Below, in pieces: positions 1-62,359 of a stretch of DNA of 64,000 bases. Numbering within the stretch: the first letter of the stretch is position 1; every line of letters starts with the position of its first letter. Below the pieces are notes generated by a model, which was not told the origin of the DNA, searched no databases, and was given only the letters and a program-made list of their open reading frames with translations. The position numbers were made by a program, and so were the translations under genes. This DNA is from Eledone cirrhosa (taxonomy: Eukaryota), in assembly GCA_964016885.1 (NCBI GenBank), contig OZ024743.1, positions 177,940,001-178,004,000 of the forward strand, given 5' to 3'.

Positions 1-750
1 TTCTGTACTGAATGAAAAATTAATTCTGGTATTTAAATAGCTGAACTTATCAAGGGGTAATTCCATATATGGTCAAAGAGATAATCACCAGGATTGGTCA
101 CATCACAAGTTAGTAGTAAATCTGTGATGGCAAGTTGGTGGGGGAAGGGGTAGCTAAACCTGCCAGTAGGAGAAAACGGGAGAGGGGATGGAGTAGACCC
201 ATTCATGCGTTGGTAGTGCCAGCTACAGCTGGGTGTGAGGTCAAAGAGGATACTAGGGAGGGGGAGGGGGAGGAGGTTGAAACAGTAAGTAGAACAATGA
301 AAGGTAAAAATGTAAAAGGTACTGAGAGAGAGAAAAAATAAGCAAAATCTGGTTACTAAGACTTAAGTCTCTCGCTATTGCTAGGCTGAAGAAATACATA
401 AATGAATAAATAAACAAATAAGTGAATAAAAGAATAGATAAATAAATTTAAAAAATATGGCAGGTTTAGCTACCCCTTCCCCCACCAACTTGCCATCACA
501 GATTTACTACTAACTTGTGATGTGACCAATCCTGGTGATTATCTCTTTGACCATATATGGAATTACCCCTTGATAAGTTCGGCTATTTAAATACCAGAAT
601 TTATTTTGCATTCAGTACAGAATTAGCCGTCGAAACGGCTTGAGCTCAGCCGTCGGGGTCTTACTTGTTCCTATTACCCACTCTACTACCCTAAGTATTG
701 AGTACTTTGGTGCGTTATGGTCCACCTGGTTCCTTACCACATTTCCTTCG

Positions 751-752
<2 letters not shown>
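1..752. mobile_element. Fold-back PLE-type terminal-repeat derivative: inverted arms 1-165 / 458-622, with a degenerate HHR at about 565-659 (+)
   Basis: 1-165 is the reverse complement of 458-622 with few mismatches. HHR-like layout: acccc-TTGATAA-(cggcta..tagccg)-GAAA-cggct gagctc agccg-TC-ggggt. The tail (655-752) recurs at about 10385-10483 and 42040-42140. Confidence 0.65.
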
Positions 753-807
<55 letters not shown>

Positions 808-810
<3 letters not shown>

Positions 811-1389
811 CGTTTCTGAATTTGTTTAGCAAGATTCTTTATCTGAAATCGTGTGTTGAAACCGATATTGTTACACTTTGGGAGGGTCATGCTGCCAATA
901 AGAAACACACGCACCAGTTGCTTTCACTTCAATTTAATTTATTAAATATTTATAAATTTACAAATTTATAAATTTCTGGTTGGTTGGTTGGTTCCACAAC
1001 CAGATAGTTGTTTATATATATATAGTCATAGTTCTTTCGTCACACACTCTGTGACCTCTTCAGTGACTGGGGATTTCTTTCTTCGTTTCTGTGCCTTTCC
1101 TTTCTTCTATCCTACGCCATTTTGTTTTCATTTCAAACAAAATGGCGTAGGATAGAAGAAAGGAAAGGCACAGAAACGAAGAAAGAAATCCCCAGTCACT
1201 GAAGAGGTCACAGAGTGTGTGACGAAAGAACTATGACTATATATATATAAACAACTATCTGGTTGTGGAACCAACCAACCAACCAGAAATTTATAAATTT
1301 GTAAATTTATAAATATTTAATAAATTAAATTGAAGTGAAAGCAACTGGTGCGTGTGTTTCTTATTGGCAGCATGACCCTCCCAAAGTGT

Positions 1390-1397
<8 letters not shown>
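808..1397. mobile_element. Fold-back non-autonomous PLE derivative (arms 865-1127 / 1135-1397), same family as the PLE at 6116-7660
   Basis: Near-perfect ~262-bp inverted repeat with a 7-nt spacer, flanked by (TA)n. The arm matches 7410-7660, and the left extension 808-873 matches 6116-6178. Confidence 0.85.
1194..1238 (+). ncRNA. Minimal type I hammerhead ribozyme (mirror copy at 1024-1068, minus)
   Basis: agtca-CTGAAGA-g gtcac agagtgt gtgac-GAAA-gaac-TA-tgact. Core, stem I and stem II are all intact. Confidence 0.8.
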
Positions 1398-1430
<33 letters not shown>

Positions 1431-1520
1431 GTAGGAGGTGAGTTTTATTGTAGTACAATAAAGCAATGCAGATATCGGATAAGAAGCACTCTACAGTTTG
1501 TAGGACTGGAGTATACATAA

Positions 1521-1816
1521 TATATAAGATCAAAAGATGGTTAAATGAGTTCCACATATTTTATTATGCGCATTTCAAAAACAAATATCATCATGCAATA
1601 ACATTTGTGTTTTCATCAGATAAAATAGGAGGACATGATATGAAGGTTACAAACAGTTGTGGTTGATTTAAAACTGCACTATACACAAGTGTTTTTAACC
1701 TTCATATCATGTCCTACTATTTTATCTGATAAAAACACAAATGTTATTGCATGATGATATTTGTTTTTGAAATGCGCATAATAAAATACATGGAACTCAT
1801 TTAACCATCTTTTGAT

Positions 1817-1822
<6 letters not shown>
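1521..1822. mobile_element. Fold-back element (arms about 1521-1655 / 1690-1822) with an HHR in each arm
   Basis: Inverted repeat visible directly; lies between (TA)n tracts. Confidence 0.75.
1557..1627 (-). ncRNA. Minimal hammerhead ribozyme (mirror copy 1718-1788 has the CTGATAA variant)
   Basis: tattttat-CTGATGA-stem II-GAAA-TGCGCA(palindrome)-TA-ataaaata. Confidence 0.8.
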
Positions 1823-1889
<67 letters not shown>

Positions 1890-1911
1890 ATACACACATA
1901 TATATATATAC

Positions 1912-1960
<49 letters not shown>

Positions 1961-2080
1961 CATATACATATATATACATAATTATATATATATACATATA
2001 AATATACATATATATACATATATATATATATACATATATATATACATATATATATATATACATACATATACATATATATA

Positions 2081-2627
2081 AAATTAGAAAATATATAGCT
2101 TTCACCGTATTTTAACTAAAGGAATTTTAGCTTGATAATGGGGTTTAGAACCCTCAGATAAATGGAAAAAGATGAGTATTGACGTACATGGGAGTCGAAC
2201 CCACATCTGTGGTTATCGCGACCACTGTGCTACCATTACACCAACACATCACCCATCTCTTTCCATTCAAATTAGAAACTACATTCTTAGCGAGTTTAAA
2301 TGGCAAGTAAGTATGTTTTGAAACAGTGAGCGAGTTTGAAATTAGAAAATGTGGGTTCGACTCACATGTACGTCAATACTCATCTTTTTCCATTTATCTG
2401 AGGGTTCTAAACCCCATTATCAAGCTAAAATTCCTTTAGTTAAAATAGGGTGAAAGATATATATTTTCTAATTTCAAACTCGCTCACTGTTTCAAAACAT
2501 ACTTACTTGCCATTTAAACTTGCTAAGAATGTAGTTTCTAATTTGAATGGAAAGAGATGGGCGATGTGTTGGTGTAATGGTAACACAGTGGTCGCGATAA
2601 CCACAGATGTGGGTTCGACTCCCATGT
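2081..2627. mobile_element. Two inverted, circularly permuted copies of a 258-nt unit containing a tRNA-like cloverleaf
   Basis: aaattagaaaat occurs at 2081 and 2339; atgtgggttcgactc occurs at 2349 and 2607 (both periods 258). 2081-2350 is the reverse complement of a permutation of 2349-2627. Confidence 0.8.
2180..2250 (-). other. tRNA-like cloverleaf (tRNA-derived Pol III promoter; probably not a translational tRNA). Second copy about 2563-2627 (+), 3'-truncated
   Basis: gatgtgt-tg-gtgt aatggta gcac-a-gtggt cgcgata accac-agat-gtggg ttcgact cccat-gtacgtc-a. A box TGGTGTAATGG, B box GGTTCGACTCC. The anticodon loop lacks U33. Confidence 0.7.
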
Positions 2628-2631
2628 ATAC

Positions 2632-2680
<49 letters not shown>

Positions 2681-2709
2681 CACATATATATATATATTTA
2701 TATATATAC

Positions 2710-2771
<62 letters not shown>

Positions 2772-2773
2772 AC

Positions 2774-3310
2774 AGAAAAGGAGGAGAGCACAAGCACGGG
2801 CTGAAAGAAAATGATATACCCTCCGCCACAGGCAGGGAGGAGAGGCCGGGCAACCAACAAGCAAAGGGCAAAGGTGAAAAGCGAAATCACCTTCCGAAGG
2901 AGAACCAAGCGCAGAGGGACCAGTGGACAACTGTTCAAAGGAAGAACAGAAAGCACCGAGACACTGGGAGCAAAAAGACCCAAGTAATGTGCAAGTTTTT
3001 CAAGAACGGGACATGCTGGCATGCAGATTCGCCCACCCTAGGTCTCAAACGAACTATGCCCATCATACTCGCGCAACATGCCCCAGCCAAAGCCGAAATA
3101 AGCCGCTCCAGAAGTATGCTTATGTCGCGCGTGCCGCACCAACAAGGAGAAGGCACGGACATGCCGACGAGATAGAGATGGCAGCAGCAGATCAGAAAAA
3201 TTTTTTAGTGATGGCAGAGAAGATTGTGGGACAGCTGAGCTGGCTGCATCGTCTCCAGAGCCAGGGTCATCCACACCAGCACTCGAGACCACCACAGTTA
3301 AGGGACCCAG
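2774..3310 (+). pseudogene. Frameshifted ORF fragment with a CCCH-type zinc finger (probably a retrotransposon ORF1 remnant)
   Basis: [10 protein letters not shown] in one frame, followed by CRFAHP in another. GC-richer island between (TA)n tracts. Confidence 0.45.
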
Positions 3311-3456: not shown

Positions 3457-3486
3457 GTATATATATATATACGTATATATATATAC

Positions 3487-6028
3487 AAAAAATCTGAGGC
3501 AATTTCAGCTCGTAAACATAAATTGCACAAAACTTTCCTGTATTACAGCCCCACGTTATACCCTAACGGATAGCACGATCTATACGTGGATATTTTACGT
3601 CTTGATGTGGGAGCTAAGTATATGTTTGTTTATTCCTTTACTTATTTGCATAGGTAAGTATATATTACCGGTATGTTTTGTGAAGGTATGTATACCTTCT
3701 TGTACGTATATTTGACTGTTATGGCGTATAATTTTTACATATTCTGGTATTTAGGGTTTGGCTATGTGTATACGGGAGTTTTGCGTCTGCGTGAGTATGC
3801 AGGTTCGTGCGTATGGTGGGTGTGTGTATATGTGTACTTCTTGTTTTAGTTGACTTACGTCTCCGAACATTCGTGTATTTATATGTAGGTATGCGTGTGC
3901 GCTTGTTATATACGTATTTATTTACTTATATACGTTTATATAATTATTTATTTATTTGTACACAAGCATACACATACACACATATATATATGTGCGTGGT
4001 TTTGTATACCTATGGTAAGGTTTTGTGTATGCTTGTGTATGTACGTATCTGTTTGCGTGTATGTATTTATTTGTTTCTATTGCTTCAGTATTGTATTTAT
4101 TTACTTTGTTCTTAACTCTGTAGCGGAGATTCATTTGGTCTCCTAGTTAGAATTTTAGTCTACGACTTCTGCTTACCATTTACGTGATTTTGTCTTTGCG
4201 TGCTATTGTTCTCCACGCTCCGCATTTGACTTATTATCTTTGTTTTTTCGTTCATTGCCAGAGAACGTCTCTATGCACCACCTAAGAGAACATTAGTCTA
4301 CGACCTCTTTTATACCATAAACGTGGTTCTGTCTTTGCGCGTAATTGTTTTTCACCGCTCCTATTAATGACGTATTATTCGTTTTTTCCTGTTCTTTGCC
4401 AGCGAACGTTACCACGAACCAAAGTATCGTCTTCCTGTCTTCCTCCGGTTGCAACGTTTTTTGAAATATCCAGTTCTGCGTTTACAGATTGACTTTGTTA
4501 GTTTCAGAAGATCCCGTTAAGGGTGAAAGCAGCGATTCTTTGCTTAAACTTTAATCTGTTATTTTAATAAATATTTGCTCTACGGTTCTTATATATTTGA
4601 TATATATTTTCCTTATCGAGCCCTCTTTGGATTTTAGTCTTCAATTTTATTATTATTACTATTTGGCTCCTTCGGTTGAGCACTCTACTGACTTATATTC
4701 ATCATGCAGAAACAACATCTGAATATTTCTACAAAGAACATACCCGTACCAAGCAGGAAAACATACCTAAAACTCCTGATACAGAAAACAGACGCGTTCA
4801 TTAAAAGGTTGCGTTGGCGTGCCTTTTACTCTACGCCACAGACCACATCTTAAACAAAAAATCTGAGGCAATTTCGGCTTGTAAACATAAATTGCACAAA
4901 ACTTTCCTGTATTACAGCCCCACATTATACCCTAACGGATAGCACGATCTATACGTGGATATTTTACGTCTTGATGTGGGAGCTAAGTATATGTTTGTTT
5001 ATTCCTTTACTTATTTGCATAGGTAAGTATATATTACCCGTATGTTTTGTGAAGGTATTTATACCTTCTCGTACGTATATTTGACTGTTATGGCGTATAA
5101 TTTTTACATATTGTGGTATTTAGGGTTTGGCTATGTGTATACGGGAGTTTTGCGTCTGCGTGAGTATGCAGGTTCGTACGTATGGTGGGTGTGTGTATAT
5201 GTGTACTTCTTGTTTTAGTTGACTTACGTCTCCGAACATTCGTGTATTTATATGTAGGTATGCGTGTGCGCTTGTTATATACGTATTTATTTACTTATAT
5301 ACGTTATATAATTATTTATTTATTTGTACACAAGCATACACACACACACATATTTATATGTGCGTGGTTTTGTATACCTATAGTAAGGTTTTGCGTATGC
5401 TTGTGTATGTACGTATTTGTTTGCGTGTATGTATTTATTTGTTTCTATTACTTCTGTATTGTATTTATTTACTTTGTTCTTAACTCTGTAGCGGAGATTC
5501 ATTTGGTCTCCTAGTTAGAATTTTAGTCTACGACTTCTGCTTACCATTTACGTGATTTTGTCTTTGCGTGCTATTGTTCTCCACGCTCCACATTTGACTT
5601 ATTATCTTCGTTTTTTCGTTCATTGCCAGAGAACGTCTCTATGCACCACCTAAGAGAACATTAGTCTACGACCTCTTTTATACTATAAACGTGGTTCTGT
5701 CTTTGCGCGTAATTGTTTTTCCCCGCTCCTATTAATGACGTATTATTCGTTTTTTCCCGTTCTTTGCCAGCGAACGTTACCACGAACCAAAGTATCGTCT
5801 TCCTGTCTTCCTCCGGTTGCAACGTTTTTTGAAATATCAAGTTCTGCGTTTACAGATTGACTTTGTTAGTTTCAGAAGATCCCGTTAAGGGTGAAAGCAG
5901 CGATTCTTTGCTTAAACTTTAATCTGTTATTTTAATAAATATTTGCTCTACGGTTCTTATATATTTGATATTATTTTCCTTATCGAGCCCTCTTTGGATT
6001 TTAGTCTTCAATTTTATTATAATTACTA

Positions 6029-6030
<2 letters not shown>
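3487..6030 (+). mobile_element. Internally deleted non-autonomous PLE with a tandem (pLTR-like) duplication: 3487-4660 and 4857-6030
   Basis: Direct repeat with offset ~1369. The spacer encodes MQKQHLNISTKNIPVPSRKTYLKLLIQKTDAFIKRLRWRA (4704-4853; PLE N-terminus-like), fused to [14 protein letters not shown], which resembles the GIY-YIG C-terminus [14 protein letters not shown] at 48.7 kb. Confidence 0.75.
4500..4550 (+). ncRNA. Variant hammerhead motif (CAGAAGA core); further copies at 5868-5918 and 8099-8149
   Basis: agttt-CAGAAGA-t ccc gttaa ggg t-GAAA-gca..tgc-TT-aaact. Confidence 0.55.
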
Positions 6031-7919
<1,889 letters not shown>

Positions 7920-7974
7920 ATTATATTATAATATAGTATAGTATAGTATATTATATTACATTATATATATATTT

Positions 7975-8160
7975 ATAGTAATAATAAATGTGAAGACTAA
8001 AATCTGAAGAGGGTTCCATAAGGATTATACATATATAAATATATATGAAAATCCGTAGGGCAAATATTTATTAAAATAAACGATTAAAGTTTAAGCAAAG
8101 TTTCAGAAGATCCCGTTAAGGGTGAAATCAGCGATCCTTTGCTTAAACTTTAATCTGTTA

Positions 8161-10318: not shown

Positions 10319-10483
10319 AAAATGTTCAAGACACAGACGGCAGAGCTCAAGCCGTTTCGACAGCTATTTCTGGACTCTGCCCTCGGGGTCTTGAACATTT
10401 TCCTATACCCACTCTACTACTCTAAGTATTGAGTACTCTGGTGCGTTATGGTCCACCTGGTTCCTTACCACACTTCCTTCGTT
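10314..10483. mobile_element. Short fold-back remnant of the 565-752 family
   Basis: taggaaaatgttcaagac / gtcttgaacattttccta arms enclose a GAAA-cggc..gccg-TC half-HHR on the minus strand; shared tail tgagtact..ggtgcgttatggtccacctgg. Confidence 0.6.
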
Positions 10484-10803
10484 ACAAAGTACGAGCGAAA
10501 CTATCGATAGTCGGGACTAGAGGAATTTTGGTAAAGTTTATATGCATTTTTTCTTCTAACTTAGACTTAGCTCGGTTTAATTGATTATTTGTCTAGTTAA
10601 TTTCTACGGGCTAACAGGAAAGACTGGATAAATTTTATCTAACTGTTCCTCGCGGAGAATAGTCTGTATCGTTTCTATTATTTCTTCGTATTTACATTCT
10701 AAACTTATAGCTCCGTTTAAATGATTATTTATTTAGTTGATTTCTACGGACTAGGGTGAAGAAAGATTGACTATATTTTATCTAATAATTCTTCAAACTT
10801 GTA

Positions 10804-40229: not shown

Positions 40230-40489
40230 TGATGGTATAGTATAAACATGAAAATGTTAAATATATTCATGTATGTATTGGTTATTTTAATAAATTAATT
40301 AAATAATTAATTATTTGATTAATTAATTGTAAGTTATATTAGAAGTGAAAATAATACGATAAGATATAAGGTAAGAGATGAAATAAATTTAGGGAGAGAA
40401 ATAGAAAGATAGAAAATGAAAGAGAGAAAATATAAAATATAAAAGGTTATGATGTTGGTTCATTGACAGTTGATGACAATAATAATAAT

Positions 40490-40667
40490 TGTTTCTACTT
40501 TAGGCACAAGGCCAGCAATTACCCAGTGCATTACTGGTACTTTATTTTATCGACCCCGTAAGGATGAAAGGCAAAGTCAACCTCAGCGGGATTTGAACTC
40601 AGATCGTAAAGGGACGTAGCTATGCTGGAAAGCATGGCGTCCGACCCTCCACCGATACTGCCAATCC
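40490..40667 (-). mobile_element. tRNA-derived SINE with an 18-bp TSD
   Basis: Same family as 7753. TSD gatgacaataataataat at 40472-40489 / 40668-40685. Confidence 0.85.
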
Positions 40668-41239
40668 GATGACAATAATAATAATGATAATAGGTTATTA
40701 TAATAGATTTAAGTGGTACAATTTGAGTTATGGAATAGATGAGATGAATTAAGTTGGTCTAAAATTATCGAATTTGGTCGCCGTTTTATGCCTACAGAAA
40801 ATTGTTCGTTCAATTTTGCCTGTAAGTAGCATTTTGTTGTATTTTAAAATATTGATTAGTTCCATATTACAAAGTCTACAGTGGGACATGCCAATTATAT
40901 AGGCCATTGCCCTAGACAACTTCATCCAGCTGATTCTGTATTCCTGGTTTGTATCTTCGAGCTGTCAGATTTTATTGGCGAGCGTCGTTGTATTCATAAG
41001 CTTCCTGTTATTTATAGAGTGTCTGTGGACATACCATCTTTTCTTGAACTCCCCCGCCGTCGAACCAGTGCCATGATAAGTTACCTGAATTTATAGCACA
41101 TAGGTACGCTATATTTGACTCCAGGCATCTATTTTGTAATGGGCATTTATCAGGCAAATGACAGTTACATTTTGTATATATGTATATATGATATAATATA
41201 ATATAATATAATATAATATAATATAATATAATATAATAT

Positions 41240-41430
41240 AATTGTTTCTACTTTTGGCACAAGGCCGGCAAAAACCCAGTGTATTACTGGTACTTTATTT
41301 TATCGACCCCGTAAGGATGAAAGGCAAAGTTAACCTCGGCGGGATTTGAACTCAGATCATAAAGGGCCGTAACTCTTTGCTGCAAAGCATGGCGTCAGAC
41401 CCTCTACCGATACTACACATCCAGCGCCGT
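41240..41430 (-). mobile_element. tRNA-derived SINE within (ATAAT)n
   Basis: Same family; B box gagttcaaatccc. Confidence 0.8.
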
Positions 41431-41978: not shown

Positions 41979-42137
41979 ATAGGAGAATAGTCAGGACCTT
42001 GACGGATCTAGCTGACGAAACGGCTGGAGCTCAGCCGTCGGGGTCCTGACTCTTTTCCTATTACCCACTCTATTACATTAAGTAGTGAGTACTCTGGTGC
42101 GTTAAGGTCCACCTGGTATCTTACCACATCTTCTTTG

Positions 42138-42140
<3 letters not shown>
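41979..42140 (+). mobile_element. Short fold-back remnant of the 565-752 family
   Basis: aggagaatagtcaggacc..gacgg / ccgtc..ggtcctgactcttttcct arms; GAAA-cggct gagctc agccg-TC. Confidence 0.6.
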
Positions 42141-42187
<47 letters not shown>

Positions 42188-42191
<4 letters not shown>

Positions 42192-54468: not shown

Positions 54469-56300
54469 CTCTAAACTCAGTACCCAGGACCTTACACCCT
54501 AAAGTAAATCAAAACGCAACTAAAAGCTCTTCCATACATCTCCACACACAACCCCCTCAACAATGAGGCCTTTGACACCATCCTCTAGAACATCCCTGTG
54601 TTAAAAAAGGACCATAGAATGAACCAAATCCTTCGAACACACGTTATCATAAAGAGCAAAAGACAATCTAAGTCAATGAAAAACATCCTAACACATGCCA
54701 AAGTACTGCCAACCACAACAACGAAACCCACAGTAAAAAAAATGCGATAGACCCAACTGTGGCATATGCATCAACCTAATAGAGGGTTCGGAATTCTATT
54801 TCAAAGAAGGACAACGTTTTATAGTAAAACACAATTTCACATGCGCATCAGAAAATCTAATATATGTATTAACTTGCTCAGGTTGTCGAGAACAATACAT
54901 AGGCCAGACTAAAAACTGCCTCCGCCAACGCATTACTGTCCATAGAGCCCAAATTAAAATACGGGAATTCAGAAAAATACCACTGAGTGAACACATTGAT
55001 ACCTGTGCCGCCCAAAATCATCCCAACTTTAGAATCTTTCTCCTCTACAAATTTAAAGATAATGCCACCCACGCCCAGCGCATCAGCAAGGAATCTCACT
55101 TTATTAACAAATACGGACTCCGTCTAAACACTTCTCCCTAAGACGAACCCACAAAATACACACCTCAACATACATATCTACATCAACATACATCCTACAT
55201 ACATTTCTATCCACATATAAACACAATGACATACGTAAACACACGGCCTATGGTGCAACACAAATATACACAAATTTGCATACCTTTTGATGTTTATAGA
55301 TATAAACGTGCCGATACACGCACACATGCATTGCACACTGATGGGCACATACATATTTGTACACAAGTATTCCAATAAGGCATGGCCTAATGGATTCCCC
55401 TTGCAGTACGTACAATCTGGACACTCACACACACCTTGGTGTTATGACAATACTATACATCATTTCACCACTTTTATTATTGATGTTTTTGATGTTCTTT
55501 TGAGAGAATGGTTTTTGCAAATGACTGAAAATATCGAATAATGTACACCATTTTTACCAGTATCACAAAAATACTGGTCCATCCACACACACACATACAC
55601 ACACACACACACATGTATACACACACACATACACACGCGTACACTAACATACATACACACACACACACACTTCTCCGTATAAGACAAGAGCTGAAAAATG
55701 TTTCAACATGTTAAAATTCCCCCACACACGTACACACACATTCCTACTGACCGATTCATTCCCTCTACCACGAACCACTCTGCTACCCACACACACATAC
55801 ACACACAGACATATTTGTCTTAATAGACATGTTTTTCAGGGACTTCTCAACATGACTGCAACTCAATCAAGCGAAAAACGACACTCTTCGACAAACCTAC
55901 ATTTGGCGCCAAACCAGTTCGCGCTAAAATGAATTTTTAAGATTCACGTAACCTCTACCGACCAATCAAAATTGTTTTGACTACGAGAATTTTTGCAACA
56001 CGAATTGGCGCGAAATTTATAGTACTTATTCACGTGACATTCAATATCCAACCAAATCTTAATACCTCTGGAGCCACTTTTTTCACATAAAACAGGAAGA
56101 ATTTCCAAAACTGATCAGATTAGAGCAAACATCACGCGCGCTCTATCACAAAATTATTTTTGAAAATCATTAGAAATGCGCAACCGGTAAAAACTTAAAA
56201 CTAAAACTGAATACTAACCAATATTTATTACTAATTTTTACTTATTCCTAATTAAACTATTTTTCACTGGGAATGTGTCACCATTTTCTTTTCCTTTTTA

Positions 56301-56303
<3 letters not shown>
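54467..56303 (+). mobile_element. 5'-truncated PLE (GIY-YIG C-terminus + 3' region)
   Basis: CDRPNCGIC..NLIYVLTCSGCREQYIGQT..LRQR..H..E..FI..LN (stop about 55141); 3' region homologous to 59087-60598. Confidence 0.85.
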
Positions 56304-56350
<47 letters not shown>

Positions 56351-56353
<3 letters not shown>

Positions 56354-57143
56354 AAAAATAGACCGAGAAACAAGAATGTCCGTCATCAGTAGTCTGCTGA
56401 TTTTTCATTGGTATTTCTTCGCATTAAAGACTAGATACCTAAAATCAGTGCGAGCGATAACTAAATTAAGTTATCGAGACAGAGGAAAAGAGAGGAAAGG
56501 AAATAAACAAGATGGTAGTAATGCAACGTAAAGAGAGGAAAAGAGAGACAAGTCAATGAATCTTGTGGGCTTAAGTACGACAAATCAAATGATGAGAAGA
56601 AACAGACGCGTCCGACGCAGCACGCCATTTTTCATTCACATATATTTTTACCCTTCGCTGTGATTCGTATATTTTCTCTCACCTTACTGCTATCTTCTTT
56701 CTCTCTCCCCCTTCTCTCTCCTTCACCTCTTGCTTTCCTCTACTCCCGCTGCTCGTCACTCACTCTCGGCTTGCCCCTTCCTCCCACTTTCACTCACTCA
56801 CTCTCTGCTACTCCTCCTCTCTCACTTCCTCCCGTCTGATCTGCGTGAAATATTCTTTCCTCTCTCACTTTTCTCGTGGCTCAGAAGCGTCTGTTTCTTC
56901 TCGTCATTTGATTTGTCGGACTTAAGTCCACAAGATTCATTGACATGAACTCTCTTTTCCTCTCTTTACGTTGCATTACTACCATGTTGTTTGTTTCCTG
57001 TCCTCTGTTTTCCTCTGTCTGATAACTTAATTTAGCTATCGCTCGCACTGATTTTAGGTATCTAGTCTTTAATGCGAAGAAAAACCAATGATAATCAGCA
57101 GGCTACTGATGAAGGACAGTCTTGTTTCTCGATCTATTTTTAT
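56351..57143. mobile_element. Diverged fold-back element (arms about 56351-56609 / 56888-57143) between (TA)n tracts
   Basis: ~255-bp inverted repeat with scattered mismatches. Confidence 0.7.
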
Positions 57144-57204
57144 TCATATATATGTATATATATAGGTACACATACATGCATACACGCACACATATACATA
57201 TATA

Positions 57205-57254
<50 letters not shown>

Positions 57255-57366
57255 TATATATATATATATGTGTGTCTGTGTATATATGTGTGTGTGCGAG
57301 CGTGTGAGACGGTGAGAGGGGGAGGATATACATACATAAATACCAATATACATACATGTACGAAAA

Positions 57367-57434
<68 letters not shown>

Positions 57435-57578
57435 GCGGGCTGCTACCAGTGGTCATAATAATAATGACGTCACTAACCAGGGACCAACCCAAGGACGCCC
57501 AAAGCGGATGAAGGTGGACGATACAGACCTGTAGGGTTAGGAACCCAAGAAAGAGGATATGCTCCGAAATCAATAGAC

Positions 57579-57659
57579 GTGTCCGAGGAACCTGCGAGTC
57601 AGGTCGATCTACACACAGATCGCACCTCGAGCTGTTCGCCGGGGAAACAATTGTAACAC
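57579..57659 (+). ncRNA. Hammerhead-like motif with an enlarged stem II domain (core CCGAGGA)
   Basis: gtgt-CCGAGGA-(acct/aggt and cgatct/agatcg hairpins)-GAAA-CAATTG-TA-acac. Confidence 0.5.
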
Positions 57660-57828
57660 ACAATAAATTGAGCTCCGATGCATCACTGATTTTTCGTTTT
57701 CCATTATATATATATATATGTATGCATGTATATGTACACATACATGCATATATACACGTGTATATATATATATAGAAAGCTCTCAACATTCGTAGTTTGT
57801 AGTTACGATGGAGATTCAGTATAATAAT

Positions 57829-58015
57829 TGTTTCTACGTTAGGCACAAGGCCAGCAATTAGCCAGTGCATTACTGGTACTTTATTTTATCGACCCTGTAA
57901 GGATGAAAGGCAAAGTTAACCTTGGCGGGATTTGAACTCAGAATGGCCAGGGCCGTAACTCTATACGTCAAAGCATGGCTTCCGACCCTCTACTAATACT
58001 GCCAATCCACCGCCC
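57829..58015 (-). mobile_element. Full-length tRNA-derived SINE with a 14-bp TSD
   Basis: 5' gggcggtggattggcagtattag, B box gagttcaaatccc; TSD ttcagtataataat at 57815-57828 / 58016-58029. Confidence 0.85.
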
Positions 58016-58037
58016 TTCAGTATAATAATATTCAGTA

Positions 58038-58430
58038 TAATAATAACATTAATGAAGATGCCGATGTTTCATAAATCGTTTATTAATTATAATTATTTCA
58101 ACGGTTCTCCCATGCAATCAAGATGTAATTCATGTATGTGTTGCTGTTATGAGAACGGTATCCTCAGATGAAATTCGATTTTGTGATATGCTGCCGGCAC
58201 AAAAAAATATACGTCCTTCTGCTCGTACGTCCAGCACACATATGCAGAAGGAGGTGTGTTTTTTTTCCTCCCAGCAACATATCACAAAATCGAATTTAAT
58301 CTGAGGATACCGTTCTCACAACAGCAACAAATTCATGAATTACATCTTTATTGCAGAGGAGAACCGTTGAAATGATTATAATGAATAAACGATTGATGTA
58401 GCATCAGCATCTTTATTAATGTTATTATAT
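58038..58430. mobile_element. Fold-back element with an HHR in each arm (58083-58172 minus; 58296-58385 plus)
   Basis: ttcat-CTGAGGA-..gttctc..gagaac..-GAAA-taatta-TA-atgaa; arms inverted. Confidence 0.7.
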
Positions 58431-58454
58431 ATATATATATTATATACACATACA

Positions 58455-58511
<57 letters not shown>

Positions 58512-58544
58512 GTATGTGTGTGTGTAGGTATATATATATATGTA

Positions 58545-58585
<41 letters not shown>

Positions 58586-58614
58586 CACATACATGTATAT
58601 ATATATGTATATAT

Positions 58615-58703
<89 letters not shown>

Positions 58704-58968
58704 AATGAATAATAACAGGTAGACATCATAAAAAGGTAATTTATTCCGTGTGCTTACAAGTGTTTCCACGGTGGTACTGCAGCCTAGTTACGCTACGTGC
58801 AAATTCACAAGTACTTGCAGAACTCGAATATCCAATGCTGTGACCAGGATCAGGAACTAAGTTTCTTGAACAATTCTTCCATAACTCGTAGAGTAACCTC
58901 TTACCGTACGTCAACCATATCCAGTGTAGTAATCAACCATTACTACATCTTGGATAATCCTATACCTA

Positions 58969-59000
<32 letters not shown>

Positions 59001-59016
59001 CACATACATGCATATA

Positions 59017-59070
<54 letters not shown>

Positions 59071-59086
59071 TAAACGGAATAGAAAA

Positions 59087-59610
59087 TGCTGACAAATTGT
59101 TCACAGTTGAAAAATGGTTTAATTAGGAATAAAAGAGTATTAGTGATTGTATGGGTTAGTATTCAGTTGTGGTTTTAAGTTTTTAAGTTTTTACCGGTTG
59201 CGCATTTCTAAATGCTTTTCAAAAATAATTTTGAGATAGAGTGTCCGTGCTGTTTGCTCTGATCTGATTAGTTTTGGGAATTCTACCTGTTTTTATGTTA
59301 AAAAAATGGCTCCAGCGTTATTTTTGTGTTGTAAAAATGCTTGTGGTCAAAACAATTTTGATTGGTCGGTAGAGGTCATGTGAATGTAAAAAGTTGATTT
59401 TGCGCCAAGACTGTTTTTATGTTAAAATGTTAGAAAAGTGGCTCCAGCAAAAATTATGTGGATAAAAAATTGGTTTTGCGCCAAGATTGAGAAATGACTC
59501 TTTCACAACAAATGTGTGTGTGTGTGTGTGTGTGTGTGTAGTAGTAGTAGTAAGGTGTTCGATGCTGCGACAATAGCCACCAGCGATGTGTGTCAAATGG
59601 CTATTAAGAT

Positions 59611-59644
<34 letters not shown>

Positions 59645-59710
59645 ACATACACACAGCAGAGTCATTCGAAGGTCAAAAGATATTTTTCAGCTTTTGTCTT
59701 ATACGGAGAA

Positions 59711-59745
<35 letters not shown>

Positions 59746-59945
59746 AGTCTCTTTGTATGTTGATGTACGCGTGTGTATGTGTTTGTGTATATATGTGTGT
59801 GTGTGTGTGTGTGCGTGTGTGGGTGGACCAGTATTTTTCCCCCCCCTGGTAAAATGGTGTACATTATTCGATTTTTTCAGTAAAATCGGTTCTCTTAATA
59901 GAACATCAACAATCTTAACAATAAAAGGTGTGAAATGATATTCAC

Positions 59946-60000
<55 letters not shown>

Positions 60001-60003
60001 TTT

Positions 60004-60043
<40 letters not shown>

Positions 60044-61282
60044 TGGCTGCCAACTCGTTTTCGAGTACGGCCACCACTTTATATCCATGTAGGAGAACCC
60101 CTACCGATGCGCTGAACGAATGTGACTTTTTAGTCCAGCCAGCGACTTGAAAACTCTGGTACAAAGACTACACTTGTGACCATTATTGACACATAGTGCA
60201 GGGCCCATGGTACCATGTGATGACAAGTGCAGAGAGATCTCCAGATATAAAGAAATGCCTGTGCTGTGAAGCTTTTATAGTGAGCAAAGGCACTGCACAA
60301 AGCCAGTCCCACTCTCTTAACCAAGATGATATTTACCAAAAAGAAGAACAAGTCAACATCATTGGATACCATCAGGGTTGCAGGTGTTATATCAGAGTTT
60401 TCCTTCTCCTAGAATTCTGCCTTGACAAAGGCTAAGGGGTCATATGTATACATATATACATACATATATATGCACATATATTTTTTTGTATTGCACCATA
60501 GAGCATGTGTGTTTACGTGTGTCATTGTGTTTATATGTGGGTAGAGATGTGTGCTGATGTAGGTATGTATGTTGACGTGTGTATGTTGTGGGTTCGTCTT
60601 AGGGAGAAGTGTTTAGACGGGGTCCGTATTTGTTAATGAAGTAAGATTCCTTGCTGATGCGCTGGGTGTGGGTGGCATTATCTTTAAATTTGTAGAGGGG
60701 AAAGATTCTGAAGTTGGGATGATTTTGGGCGGCGCAGGTATCAATGTGTTCACTCAGTGGTATTTTCCTGTATTCCCGTATTTTAATTTGGGATCTATGG
60801 ACAGTCATGCGTTGGCGGAGGCTGTTTTTGGTCTGGCCTATGTATTGTTCTCGACAACCTGAACAAGTTAATACATATATTAAATTTTCCGATGCACATG
60901 TGAAATTGTGTTTTACTATAAAACGTTGTCCATCTTTGAAATAGAATTCCGAACCCTCTATTAGGTTGATGCAAATGCCACAGTTGGGTCTATCGCATTT
61001 TTTTACTGTGGGTTTCGTTGTTGTGGTTGCACAGGCATTTCTTTATATCTGGAGATCTCTCTGCACTTGTCATCACATGGTGCCATGGGCCCTGCACTAT
61101 GTGTCAATAATGGTCACAAGTGTAGTCTTTGTACCAGAGTTTTCAAGTCGCTGGCTGGACTAAAAAGTCACATTCGTTCAGCGCATCGGTAGGGGTTCTC
61201 CTACATGGATATAAAGTGGTGGCCGTACTCGAAAACGAGTTGGCAGCCACCATATATATATATATATATATATGTAGTGAAA

Positions 61283-61331
<49 letters not shown>

Positions 61332-61631
61332 GTGAATATCATTTCACACCTTTTATTGTTAAGATTGTTGATGTTCTATTAAGAGAACCGATTTTACTGA
61401 AAAAATCGAATAATGTACACCATTTTACCAGGGGGGGGGAAAAATACTGGTCCACCCACACACGCACACACACACACACACATATATATACACAAACACA
61501 TACACACGCGTACATCAACATACAAAGAGACTTATACACACACACACACACACACACACAAGCACTTCTCCGTATAAGACAAAAGCTGAAAAATATCTTT
61601 TGACCTTCGAATGACTCTGCTGTGTGTATGT

Positions 61632-61683
<52 letters not shown>

Positions 61684-61752
61684 ATCTTAATAGCCATTTG
61701 ACACACATCGCTGGTGGCTATTGTCGCAGCATCGAACACCTTACTACTACTA

Positions 61753-61784
<32 letters not shown>

Positions 61785-62265
61785 TTGTTGTGAAAGAGTC
61801 ATTTCTCAATCTTGGCGCAAAACCAATTTTTTATCCACATGACCTCTACCGACCAATCAAAATTGTTTTGACCATAATTTTTGCTGGAGCCACTTTTCTA
61901 ACATTTTAACATAAAAACAGTCTTGGCGCAAAATCAACTTTTTACATTCACATGACCTCCACCGACCAATCAAAATTGTTTTGACCACAAGCATTTTTAC
62001 AACACAAAAATAACGCTGGAGCCATTTTTTTAACATAAAAACAGGTAGAATTCCCAAAACTAATCAGATCAGAGCAAACAGCACGGACACTCTATCTCAA
62101 AATTATTTTTGAAAAGCATTTAGAAATGCGCAACCGGTAAAAACTTAAAAACTTAAAACCACAACTGAATACTAACCCATACAATCACTAATACTCTTTT
62201 ATTCCTAATTAAACCATTTTTCAACTGTGAACAATTTGTCAGCATTTTCTATTCCGTTTACCAAT
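59087..62265. mobile_element. PLE copy (GIY-YIG end 60599-61030, minus) with a ~1.2-kb inverted duplication of its 3' part (59087-60261 / 61030-62265)
   Basis: Arms nearly identical; homologous to 54467-56303; contains an RTE-derived insert at 60041-60441. Confidence 0.85.
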
Positions 62266-62299
62266 ATATAATAACTTGTGTGTTACACCTCTATTCTTT

Positions 62300-62359
<60 letters not shown>

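What the first reader, a model, noticed from the sequence alone, without database searches (positions are those of the whole stretch)
2081..2627. 258-nt tRNA-containing unit inserted as two inverted, circularly permuted, terminally redundant copies: candidate Pol III retrozyme / circular-RNA retroelement
Seen: both halves are slightly longer than one 258-nt monomer but start at different points of the unit (redundant ends at 2081/2339 and 2349/2607), joined head-to-head inside (TA)n. The unit has a fully pairing tRNA cloverleaf (A/B boxes, odd anticodon loop CGCGATA) closed by an extra stem (aatggaaagagatg / catctttttccatt). A hammerhead-like stretch follows: CTGAGGG..accc..gggt-GAAA-gc-TA (core off by one base, stem I poor). 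Known: animal non-LTR retrozymes are short HHR-bearing tandem units with circular RNA intermediates, and Schistosoma Sm-alpha combines a tRNA-type promoter with an HHR. Inference: the template was circular or multimeric RNA, copied by PLE machinery, which produces the same inverted architecture nearby. A conventional SINE would have the tRNA part fixed at its 5' end.
Basis: partly seen in the sequence, partly recalled or inferred. Interest (0 to 1): 0.78.

Follow-up and report, generated by a model that had tools for sequence, protein, structure and literature searches.

The report
Retroelement likely circularised by tRNA splicing
This is one copy of a dispersed family of short tRNA-derived repeats that sit head-to-head in TA runs, likely pasted there by Penelope-type retrotransposons from a likely circular RNA, and the circle is predicted to be cut out by the host's own tRNA-splicing enzymes rather than by a ribozyme.

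Summary
In detail: two inverted arms of a 258-nt unit (270 and 280 nt), each just over one monomer and starting at different points, lie between (TA)n runs. It is a dispersed family (2129 candidates). In 117 distinct loci, 68 of 73 adjacent arm pairs are head-to-head. In 49 of 50 pairs with standard ends, one arm ends at site A and the other about 40 nt further at site B, the Penelope 'tail' signature. Most arms run past the tRNA start into the previous unit without a seam, so the template was circular or multimeric. The hammerhead is not supported: its core is absent from two sister lineages with the same architecture. Instead, anticodon-loop positions 32-35 are self-complementary in every amplified state (CCGG, CTGG, CGCG). 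A dimer transcript can therefore fold into a strict bulge-helix-bulge at the canonical 37/38 splice site. Cutting there would free exactly one monomer for RtcB to close, as for tRNA-intron circles and permuted tRNAs. No RNA data were available, and the commonest state (CTGG) does not favour this fold in silico. Penelope mobilisation about 0.93, circle about 0.65, tRNA-splicing route about 0.45.

The parts
2081..2350 (-). Arm A, 1.05 units (unit 115 round to 126); 3' end at family site A on (TA)n; one difference from the young majority sequence
2349..2628 (+). Arm B, 1.09 units (unit 1 round to 22); atypical 3' end; seven differences from the young majority sequence
2349..2350 (.). Head-to-head junction of the two 5' ends, 2-nt microhomology
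   Evidence: 0-7 nt overlap in most pairs
2180..2250 (-). tRNA-like domain of arm A (cloverleaf with A and B boxes; +1 at 2250)
2214..2220 (-). Anticodon loop 32-38 of arm A: self-complementary 32-35 (2217-2220) plus 3-nt 36-38; predicted half of a bulge-helix-bulge in a dimer, predicted cut between 2215 and 2214
   Evidence: sequence; folds of genomic dimers, (prediction)
2251..2267 (-). Leader strand of the 17-bp stem that extends the acceptor stem (arm A)
2161..2177 (-). Trailer strand of the 17-bp stem, holds the T5 run (arm A)
2563..2628 (+). tRNA-like domain of arm B, cut off in the 3' acceptor strand; loop 32-38 at 2593-2599
   Evidence: sequence
2398..2455 (+).
2460..2519 (+). Region holding the family's two preferred 3' ends (inferred reverse-transcription starts): site A peak at unit 124 = 2472, site B peaks at 161 = 2509 and 168 = 2516
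1819..2080 (.). Left (TA)n-type target array
2627..2772 (.). Right (TA)n-type target array

Best explanation
The locus is one insertion of a dispersed, non-coding, tRNA-derived repeat family whose copies are permuted multimers joined head-to-head in (TA)n, likely made by a Penelope-like retrotransposon protein copying a likely circular RNA that is predicted to be released by the host tRNA-splicing endonuclease and closed by RtcB. Steps: (1, inferred) a source copy longer than one unit is transcribed through both anticodon arms. (2, predicted) The two loops swap partners: positions 32-35 of one loop pair with 32-35 of the next, leaving 36-38 bulged on both strands between two anticodon stems, a strict bulge-helix-bulge at the canonical site. 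(3, inferred from known TSEN/RtcB chemistry) Cuts at 37/38 release exactly one monomer folded as a permuted pre-tRNA, clamped by the 17-bp trailer/leader stem, and RtcB ligates it into a circle; the two outer halves give a linear RNA starting at +1. (4, inferred) A Penelope-type protein nicks both strands of a (TA)n run and primes one cDNA at site A and the other at site B; on a circle the copies roll past any start point, on the linear RNA both stop at +1; the two cDNAs are joined at their ends by microhomology. The resulting architecture (step 4's product) is shown directly.
For: Architecture: 68 of 73 adjacent arm pairs head-to-head; 167 of 192 arms end in site A or B; 49 of 50 pairs with two standard ends are A+B; (TA)3 within 4 nt of both 3' ends in 49 of 68 pairs, one in 17, none in 2. 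A GIY-YIG-bearing element in the same window shows the same long-end/short-end pattern. PMC11167929 (parts 1-2 read): a purified Penelope protein cuts and extends both strands at AT-rich DNA and starts at two internal RNA sites that define the 30-40 nt tail. No 5' end: 59 of 82 motif-bearing arms pass +1 by more than 7 nt; the +1 junction has no length change in 123 of 123 cases; subfamily alleles are shared by both repeats of an arm in 446 of 496 cases with no directional difference; no young array above about 2.5 units among the 40 candidates scored in each. Two template classes: both arms stop near +1 in 8 pairs, one in 2, neither in 40. Splice motif: amplified states of 32-35 are CCGG, CTGG, CGCG only while 36-37 and so the anticodon vary; C32, G35, A38 are constant. 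P(helix) 0.93-0.96 in two young genomic dimers; 0.94, 0.91, 0.96 for majority dimers of three lineages; only CG and GC of 16 states at 33-34 exceed 0.9 in the young background, and both occur. tRNA domain more conserved than spacer (59 of 72 against 85 of 197 columns), leader and trailer both 2 nt longer in the third lineage. PMC6614914 (passages): Drosophila intron circles need a C-G proximal pair, a 3-nt bulge and 6 nt from C32 to the exon end, all met here, and work with G-U pairs in the middle. TSEN-domain and RtcB genes are in the genome.
Against: No RNA was seen: circle, cut site and transcription are untested. The commonest state, CTGG (about 80% of read depth at position 33), does not favour the swapped fold (P 0, +3 to +5 kcal/mol). 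The covariation is weak by construction: both loops are copies of one unit, so any change hits both sides; CG to TG is an ordinary transition, leaving one informative double change (to GC; about one chance in three or four in nine by my count) plus the starting state. PMC6614914 reports that a fully paired helix lowers splicing. 5' ends show a small peak at unit 245-250 (12 of 178, 4.1 expected, window chosen afterwards), not at the predicted cut (251). Only 5 of 82 arms get a full turn past +1, a sharper drop than free rolling suggests. Only 6 of 113 young arms could form the fold and 4 hold two whole tRNAs; the window copy cannot. The invariant T5 should stop Pol III (established knowledge). 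The partner element was not identified: no likeness to the ends of the elements in the window. Arm B has 7 differences from the majority and arm A 1, not what one shared template predicts.
Confidence: 0.45

Rival explanations
1. Same Penelope-mobilised family, but the monomer is cut at the tRNA +1 by RNase P (or begins there), its 3' end is held next to its 5' end by the 17-bp stem, and it is either ligated by a 5'-phosphate ligase or copied with repeated template jumps.
For: 5' ends peak at +1 (19 of 178 at unit 213-222, 6.9 expected); the stem is conserved and would splint the ends; it needs no swapped fold, so it covers the CTGG lineage.
Against: No length change at that junction in 123 of 123 cases, whereas template jumps usually leave scars (established knowledge, recalled); it does not explain why 32-35 stays self-complementary; arms stop at +1 together or not at all, which fits two RNA classes better than chance jumping.
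Confidence: 0.2
2. The template is a linear multimer read through from tandem DNA copies (2-3-unit insertions or the long arrays); no circle exists, and the palindromic loop is chance or serves loop-loop dimerisation of two RNAs.
For: Arrays of 10-28 units exist; few arms exceed about 1.8 units; one young 2.4-unit arm lies within the span of another of 2.5 units; 16 of 116 motif hits were not listed and an assembly can collapse a young array.
Against: All long arrays found are old types with mosaic unit variants that dispersed multimers do not repeat; new subfamily alleles appear in all repeats of an arm at once; no pile-up of 5' ends at the second +1 (1 of 82).
Confidence: 0.25
3. A hammerhead retrozyme.
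For: CTGAGGG and GAAA are present in one lineage and pass a relaxed descriptor; unit size and tandem habit fit animal retrozymes (PMC7229834).
Against: A9 is wrong, stem II is not flush, both core halves are absent in two sister lineages with the same architecture; the relaxed descriptor fires on 174 of 1000 shuffles.
Confidence: 0.03
4. A DNA-level product: local inverted duplication or pieces scattered from a satellite.
For: The long arrays did grow or turn over at DNA level (non-star pattern, lag-2 and lag-3 repeats).
Against: Fixed, strand-paired A/B ends on (TA)n, variable 5' ends, head-to-head only, and a peak at the tRNA +1; the long arrays themselves end at A or B.
Confidence: 0.03

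Closest known systems
Animal non-LTR retrozymes (PMC7229834; parts 1 and 4 of 6 and passages read; review PMC7761336, passages)
   Same: Short non-coding unit of 170-400 nt, tandem dimers to large multimers, proposed circle closed by RtcB, Penelope elements proposed as carriers.
   Different: No hammerhead; a tRNA body takes its place. Here the Penelope footprint is shown in the genome, where those papers only propose the partner. Circles are shown there and only inferred here.
Penelope-like elements and their non-autonomous partners (PMC11167929 parts 1-2; PMC8557442 and PMC3846280 passages)
   Same: 5' truncation, partial tandems, inverted head-to-head copy, 30-40 nt tail at one end, (TA)n targets; non-autonomous head-to-tail multicopy families are known in Chlamydomonas.
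   Different: No ORF, no hammerhead, no detected likeness to a partner's end; a tRNA domain is the conserved part. The tail rule is near absolute here (49 of 50).
tRNA intronic circular RNAs (PMC6614914, PMC4536317; passages)
   Same: Predicted cut at 37/38 by TSEN, circle closed by RtcB, C-G proximal pair, 3-nt bulge.
   Different: The 'intron' is a whole copy of the element and contains a permuted tRNA; the product would be a transposition template, not a by-product of a real tRNA.
Circularly permuted tRNA genes of algae and one archaeon (PMC3978253; passages)
   Same: 3' half, spacer, 5' half; bulge-helix-bulge at the ends; circular intermediate. The review cites cleavage of a tandem pre-tRNA by an archaeal enzyme (original paper not seen).
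   Different: There RNase P and Z open the circle into a working tRNA; here the anticodon is not conserved, the element is in thousands of copies in an animal genome, and the leader/trailer stem would likely keep the circle closed.
tRNA-derived SINEs (recalled)
   Same: tRNA head with A and B boxes; one class of copies starts at +1.
   Different: Most copies run upstream of +1 into the previous unit; no poly-A or LINE-type tail; paired inverted insertion.

Membership tests
Non-LTR retrozyme | Conserved type I hammerhead core | tested here: not met
   the descriptor found 2 of 3 window control stretches; Rfam silence is uninformative since it also missed those controls
Non-LTR retrozyme | Short tandem unit of 170-400 nt, dimers to multimers, dispersed | tested here: met
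   258-291 nt units, 1-28 copies per arm
Non-LTR retrozyme | Expressed as circular RNA | not testable with these tools
   no RNA holder listed
Penelope-mobilised element | Inverted 5'-truncated partner copy, head-to-head | tested here: met
   68 of 73 adjacent pairs
Penelope-mobilised element | Two 3' ends about 30-40 nt apart, tail on one side | tested here: met
   peaks at 124 and 161/168; 49 of 50 mixed; third lineage about 60-70 nt apart
Penelope-mobilised element | AT-rich or (TA)n target | tested here: met
   66 of 68 pairs have (TA)3 at one or both ends
Penelope-mobilised element | 3' sequence shared with an autonomous partner | tested here: inconclusive
   no significant match to 9 end regions of window elements; other families of the genome not tested
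Autonomous Penelope-like element | RT and GIY-YIG ORF | tested here: not met
   258-nt non-coding unit; overlapping frame 2444-3172 has no Pfam match
tRNA-derived SINE | tRNA head with A and B boxes | tested here: met
   B box altered in the third lineage
tRNA-derived SINE | 5' boundary fixed at the tRNA start | tested here: not met
   59 of 82 arms pass it
tRNA-splicing circle (tricRNA / permuted pre-tRNA) | Bulge-helix-bulge at 37/38 with C32-G proximal pair on a tRNA body | tested here: inconclusive
   geometry can form in all lineages (97.5% of helix cells paired in 10 genomic dimers); favoured in three states, not in CTGG
tRNA-splicing circle (tricRNA / permuted pre-tRNA) | Cleavage by TSEN and ligation by RtcB | not testable with these tools
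   genes present; activity on this RNA untested
Functional tRNA gene | Conserved anticodon, U33, purine 37, type-matching variable arm | tested here: not met
   34-36 read CGA, GGA or GGC; 33 is G, T or C; 37 is T in two lineages

The most novel reading that the evidence does not exclude
A class of retroelement with no ribozyme and no protein that uses a self-complementary anticodon loop to turn its own tandem transcript into a tRNA-splicing substrate, so that host TSEN and RtcB make the circular RNA which Penelope reverse transcriptase then rolls into the genome.
Probability: 0.45. Interest if true: 0.9.

Novelty: new variant of a known kind. Interest (0 to 1): 0.76.

Why it matters
If right, it adds a third natural route to a retroelement RNA circle (host tRNA splicing, beside ribozymes and back-splicing) and links retrozymes, tRNA-intron circles and permuted tRNA genes. 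Independently of that, thousands of short copies give a clean record of Penelope integration: each strand is primed at a different fixed RNA site (49 of 50 pairs) and both arms use the same template class. That makes an open question of Penelope biology (origin of the one-sided tail and inverted copy) testable with a 258-nt RNA, and supports by analogy the proposal that Penelope elements carry retrozymes.

Tried and rejected
Hammerhead: my first descriptor missed its own positive controls and was discarded; the second found 2 of 3. Rfam gave no ribozyme hit on the unit but also none on the controls, so it carries no weight. An antisense core-like word had only a 2-pair stem and is absent from other lineages. 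RNA: no RNA holder listed; the four runs are contigs of unknown kind, used only for variant letters; one run of a second organism holds related pieces (5 contigs). The idea that the 25- and 28-unit arrays are single rolling-circle products was rejected: shared variants exceed all 300 column shuffles. Rare variants shared within arms (25%) fell to 5.6% in young arms, driven by one old locus; sharing between paired arms (18% against 0.7%) may be conversion in a palindrome, so I do not count it. Apparent directional differences at unit 93 and 113 were gap-placement artefacts. A two-enzymes-on-one-template test (A arm further than B) was weak: 29 of 49. The tree failed to print. Parent tRNA not identified. 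Earlier-findings look-ups returned nothing. Paper searches for a tRNA-splicing or tRNA-derived Penelope partner listed none by title or abstract; the library lacks most subscription papers and I read no supplements, so absence from print is not proven. The taxon was not established.

Full report
Observation. The two arms, the 258-nt period, the redundant ends, the 2-nt junction overlap and the (TA)n flanks are as described. The tRNA fold passes ARAGORN and Rfam and is extended by a 17-bp leader/trailer stem. Unit positions below count from window 2349; the tRNA +1 is unit 215 and loop positions 32-38 are unit 245-251.

A dispersed family. A search of the window's own genome (G000, 3.0 Gb) gave 2129 candidates, 40 scored, mostly 92-97% identical; an exact 20-base motif occurs 116 times, its reversed control 0 times. 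Queries from older or sister types gave 6515, 2758 and 1751 candidates; these overlap and are lower bounds, not copy numbers. From 139 locus records I kept 192 arms at 117 loci after removing repeated fetches and one segmental duplicate. The sample mixes best-scoring hits with the motif-selected set (100 of the 116 hits were listed); length statistics use the motif-selected set.

Penelope footprint. Of 73 adjacent arm pairs 68 are head-to-head, 3 same-strand, 2 tail-to-tail. 167 of 192 arms end in site A (unit 110-130, peak 124) or site B (151-171, peaks 161 and 168); the windows were drawn after seeing the data. Among the 68 pairs, 49 are A+B, 1 is B+B, none A+A, and 18 have a non-standard end, the window locus among them. 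(TA)3 lies within 4 nt of both 3' ends in 49 pairs, one in 17, none in 2. A window element with a weak GIY-YIG match (E 0.0011, below the Pfam cut-off; zinc-finger-like cysteines before it) shows the same pattern, with a 55-nt tail on the inverted arm only. PMC11167929 (parts 1-2 of 4 read) shows a purified Penelope protein cutting and extending both strands at AT-rich DNA and starting at two internal RNA sites that define the tail; it saw no strand difference in start site in vitro, whereas the genomic pairs here are strictly mixed. PMC8557442 and PMC3846280 (passages) describe the inverted copy, one-sided tail and (TA)n bias; the latter offers self-priming on an antisense template as another reading of head-to-head junctions, which I did not test. 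No partner was identified.

Template. 5' ends peak at the tRNA start (19 of 178 arms at 213-222, 6.9 expected), and in pairs both arms stop there (8), or neither (40), rarely one (2): a linear RNA class beginning at +1. But 59 of 82 motif-bearing arms run more than 7 nt past +1, and 51 of 111 arms at those loci exceed one monomer (counted before the one duplicate was removed). The junction is seamless (123 of 123). Subfamily alleles at 13 sites are shared by both repeats in 446 of 496 cases, with no directional bias on raw sequence. Young arms reach 2.5 units; arrays of 10, 17, 25 and 28 units are old types, end at A or B, and show later DNA-level turnover. This favours repeated copying of one monomer. 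Against it: only 5 of 82 arms complete a turn past +1, and a collapsed young array cannot be excluded.

No hammerhead. The proposed stem II depends on a base found in 2 of 191 calls. A 271-nt lineage reads CCGAGGG and GATA at the two core words, a lineage of about 290 nt reads CAGAGGG with no GAAA, and both still form head-to-head multimers with mixed ends. A descriptor loose enough to accept the first lineage hits 174 of 1000 shuffles.

What is conserved instead. Across five majority sequences the tRNA domain keeps 59 of 72 columns, the spacer 85 of 197. Changes keep the fold: pair 27-43 is T-A, G-A or G-C, acceptor changes stay paired, and leader and trailer are both 2 nt longer in the third lineage. 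The anticodon is not kept. Positions 32-35 are: CCGG, CTGG or CGCG; self-pairing in 178 of 188 dispersed loops, the rest scattered single changes; in contigs of three runs of one sample no other letter reaches 3% there. In a dimer this gives two 3-nt bulges around a 4-bp helix between two anticodon stems, the strict motif of PMC3978253 (passages), at the canonical site. Two young genomic dimers fold this way unprompted (P 0.93-0.96), one old one does not; majority dimers give 0.94, 0.91, 0.96, and 0 for both CTGG types (+3.3 and +4.7 kcal/mol). On 10 genomic dimers 93% of cells pair, 97.5% in the central helix; since both loops copy one unit, 'both sides changed' is automatic and only the persistence of a palindrome counts. 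That rests on the starting state and one double change with no amplified intermediate among about 210 dispersed calls. PMC6614914 (passages) lists the needs of Drosophila intron circles: C-G proximal pair, 3-nt bulge, 6 nt from C32 to the exon end, some pairing, not too much; the CTGG state resembles its wild-type helix with two G-U pairs, the CGCG and CCGG states resemble the over-paired mutants that spliced less. Catalytic TSEN domains (two loci) and RtcB are in the genome, as expected for an animal.

Mechanism and odds. Shown: family, architecture, paired A/B ends, passage through +1, loss of the hammerhead words, palindromic loop. Inferred: Penelope mobilisation (about 0.93), template without a 5' end (about 0.9), a true circle (about 0.65). 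Predicted: release by tRNA splicing (about 0.45 overall). The model also accounts for the long stem (it clamps the excised permuted monomer) and for the +1 class (spliced outer halves, or primary transcripts). Open: the polymerase (T5 in 195 of 204 trailers; altered B box), the small peak of 5' ends at 245-250 rather than 251, and the few possible source copies (6 of 113). The window copy itself is a dead end under this model: neither arm holds two anticodon arms.

Verdict. It works like a retrozyme but is not one by the defining test; it is not a standard SINE. My paper searches (listings and abstract starts) showed no such element, within a library that lacks most subscription journals. Filed as a new variant of a known kind; it would be a new kind if the splicing step is shown.

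Noticed in passing
window 809-1397 and 6116-7660: Penelope-like element family: head-to-head palindrome of its terminal repeat with a hammerhead core (CTGAAGA, stem, GAAA), and a 3' ORF piece with a weak GIY-YIG match and one stop; the 55-nt tail is on the inverted arm only.
   Followed up: partly
window 1-752: Second inverted pair (1-165 with 458-622) holding a hammerhead-like motif with a U3-A8 type core word, long stem II and a GTC site; related pieces at 10370-10484 and 42009-42188. My descriptor did not confirm it.
   Followed up: partly
window 1512-1834: Palindrome of two 142-nt arms next to the (TA)n array; likely another head-to-head insertion of an unknown non-coding family.
   Followed up: no
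window 3482-4662 and 4851-6029: Direct repeat of 1181 nt, 98% identical, period 1369, between TA runs; looks like a partial tandem of a non-coding element.
   Followed up: no
window 11331-32990: Several nested or tandem copies of a non-LTR retrotransposon with RVT_1 and zf-RVT matches, 75-95% alike.
   Followed up: no
window 54710-62353: Cluster of large inverted repeats (489-830 nt, 92-95%) among microsatellites.
   Followed up: no
L113:923-7828, L114:411-7585, L126:1892-6199, L127:2136-4898: Mini-satellite arrays of 10-28 units seeded by single insertions (standard A or B ends, one with its inverted partner) and later reshuffled at DNA level: a retroelement turning into satellite DNA.
   Followed up: partly
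L005 / L101:1501-2593: Young 2.5 + 1.7 unit pair without (TA)n flanks, holding two whole tRNAs: a candidate source copy.
   Followed up: partly
L008 and L030: Two independent insertions share the same junction (unit 1 with 149) through a 4-nt microhomology.
   Followed up: yes
window 7752-7991, also 40479-40659, 41167-41414, 57821-58008: SINE-like repeat ending in short A/T-rich tandem runs; family not identified by any search.
   Followed up: no
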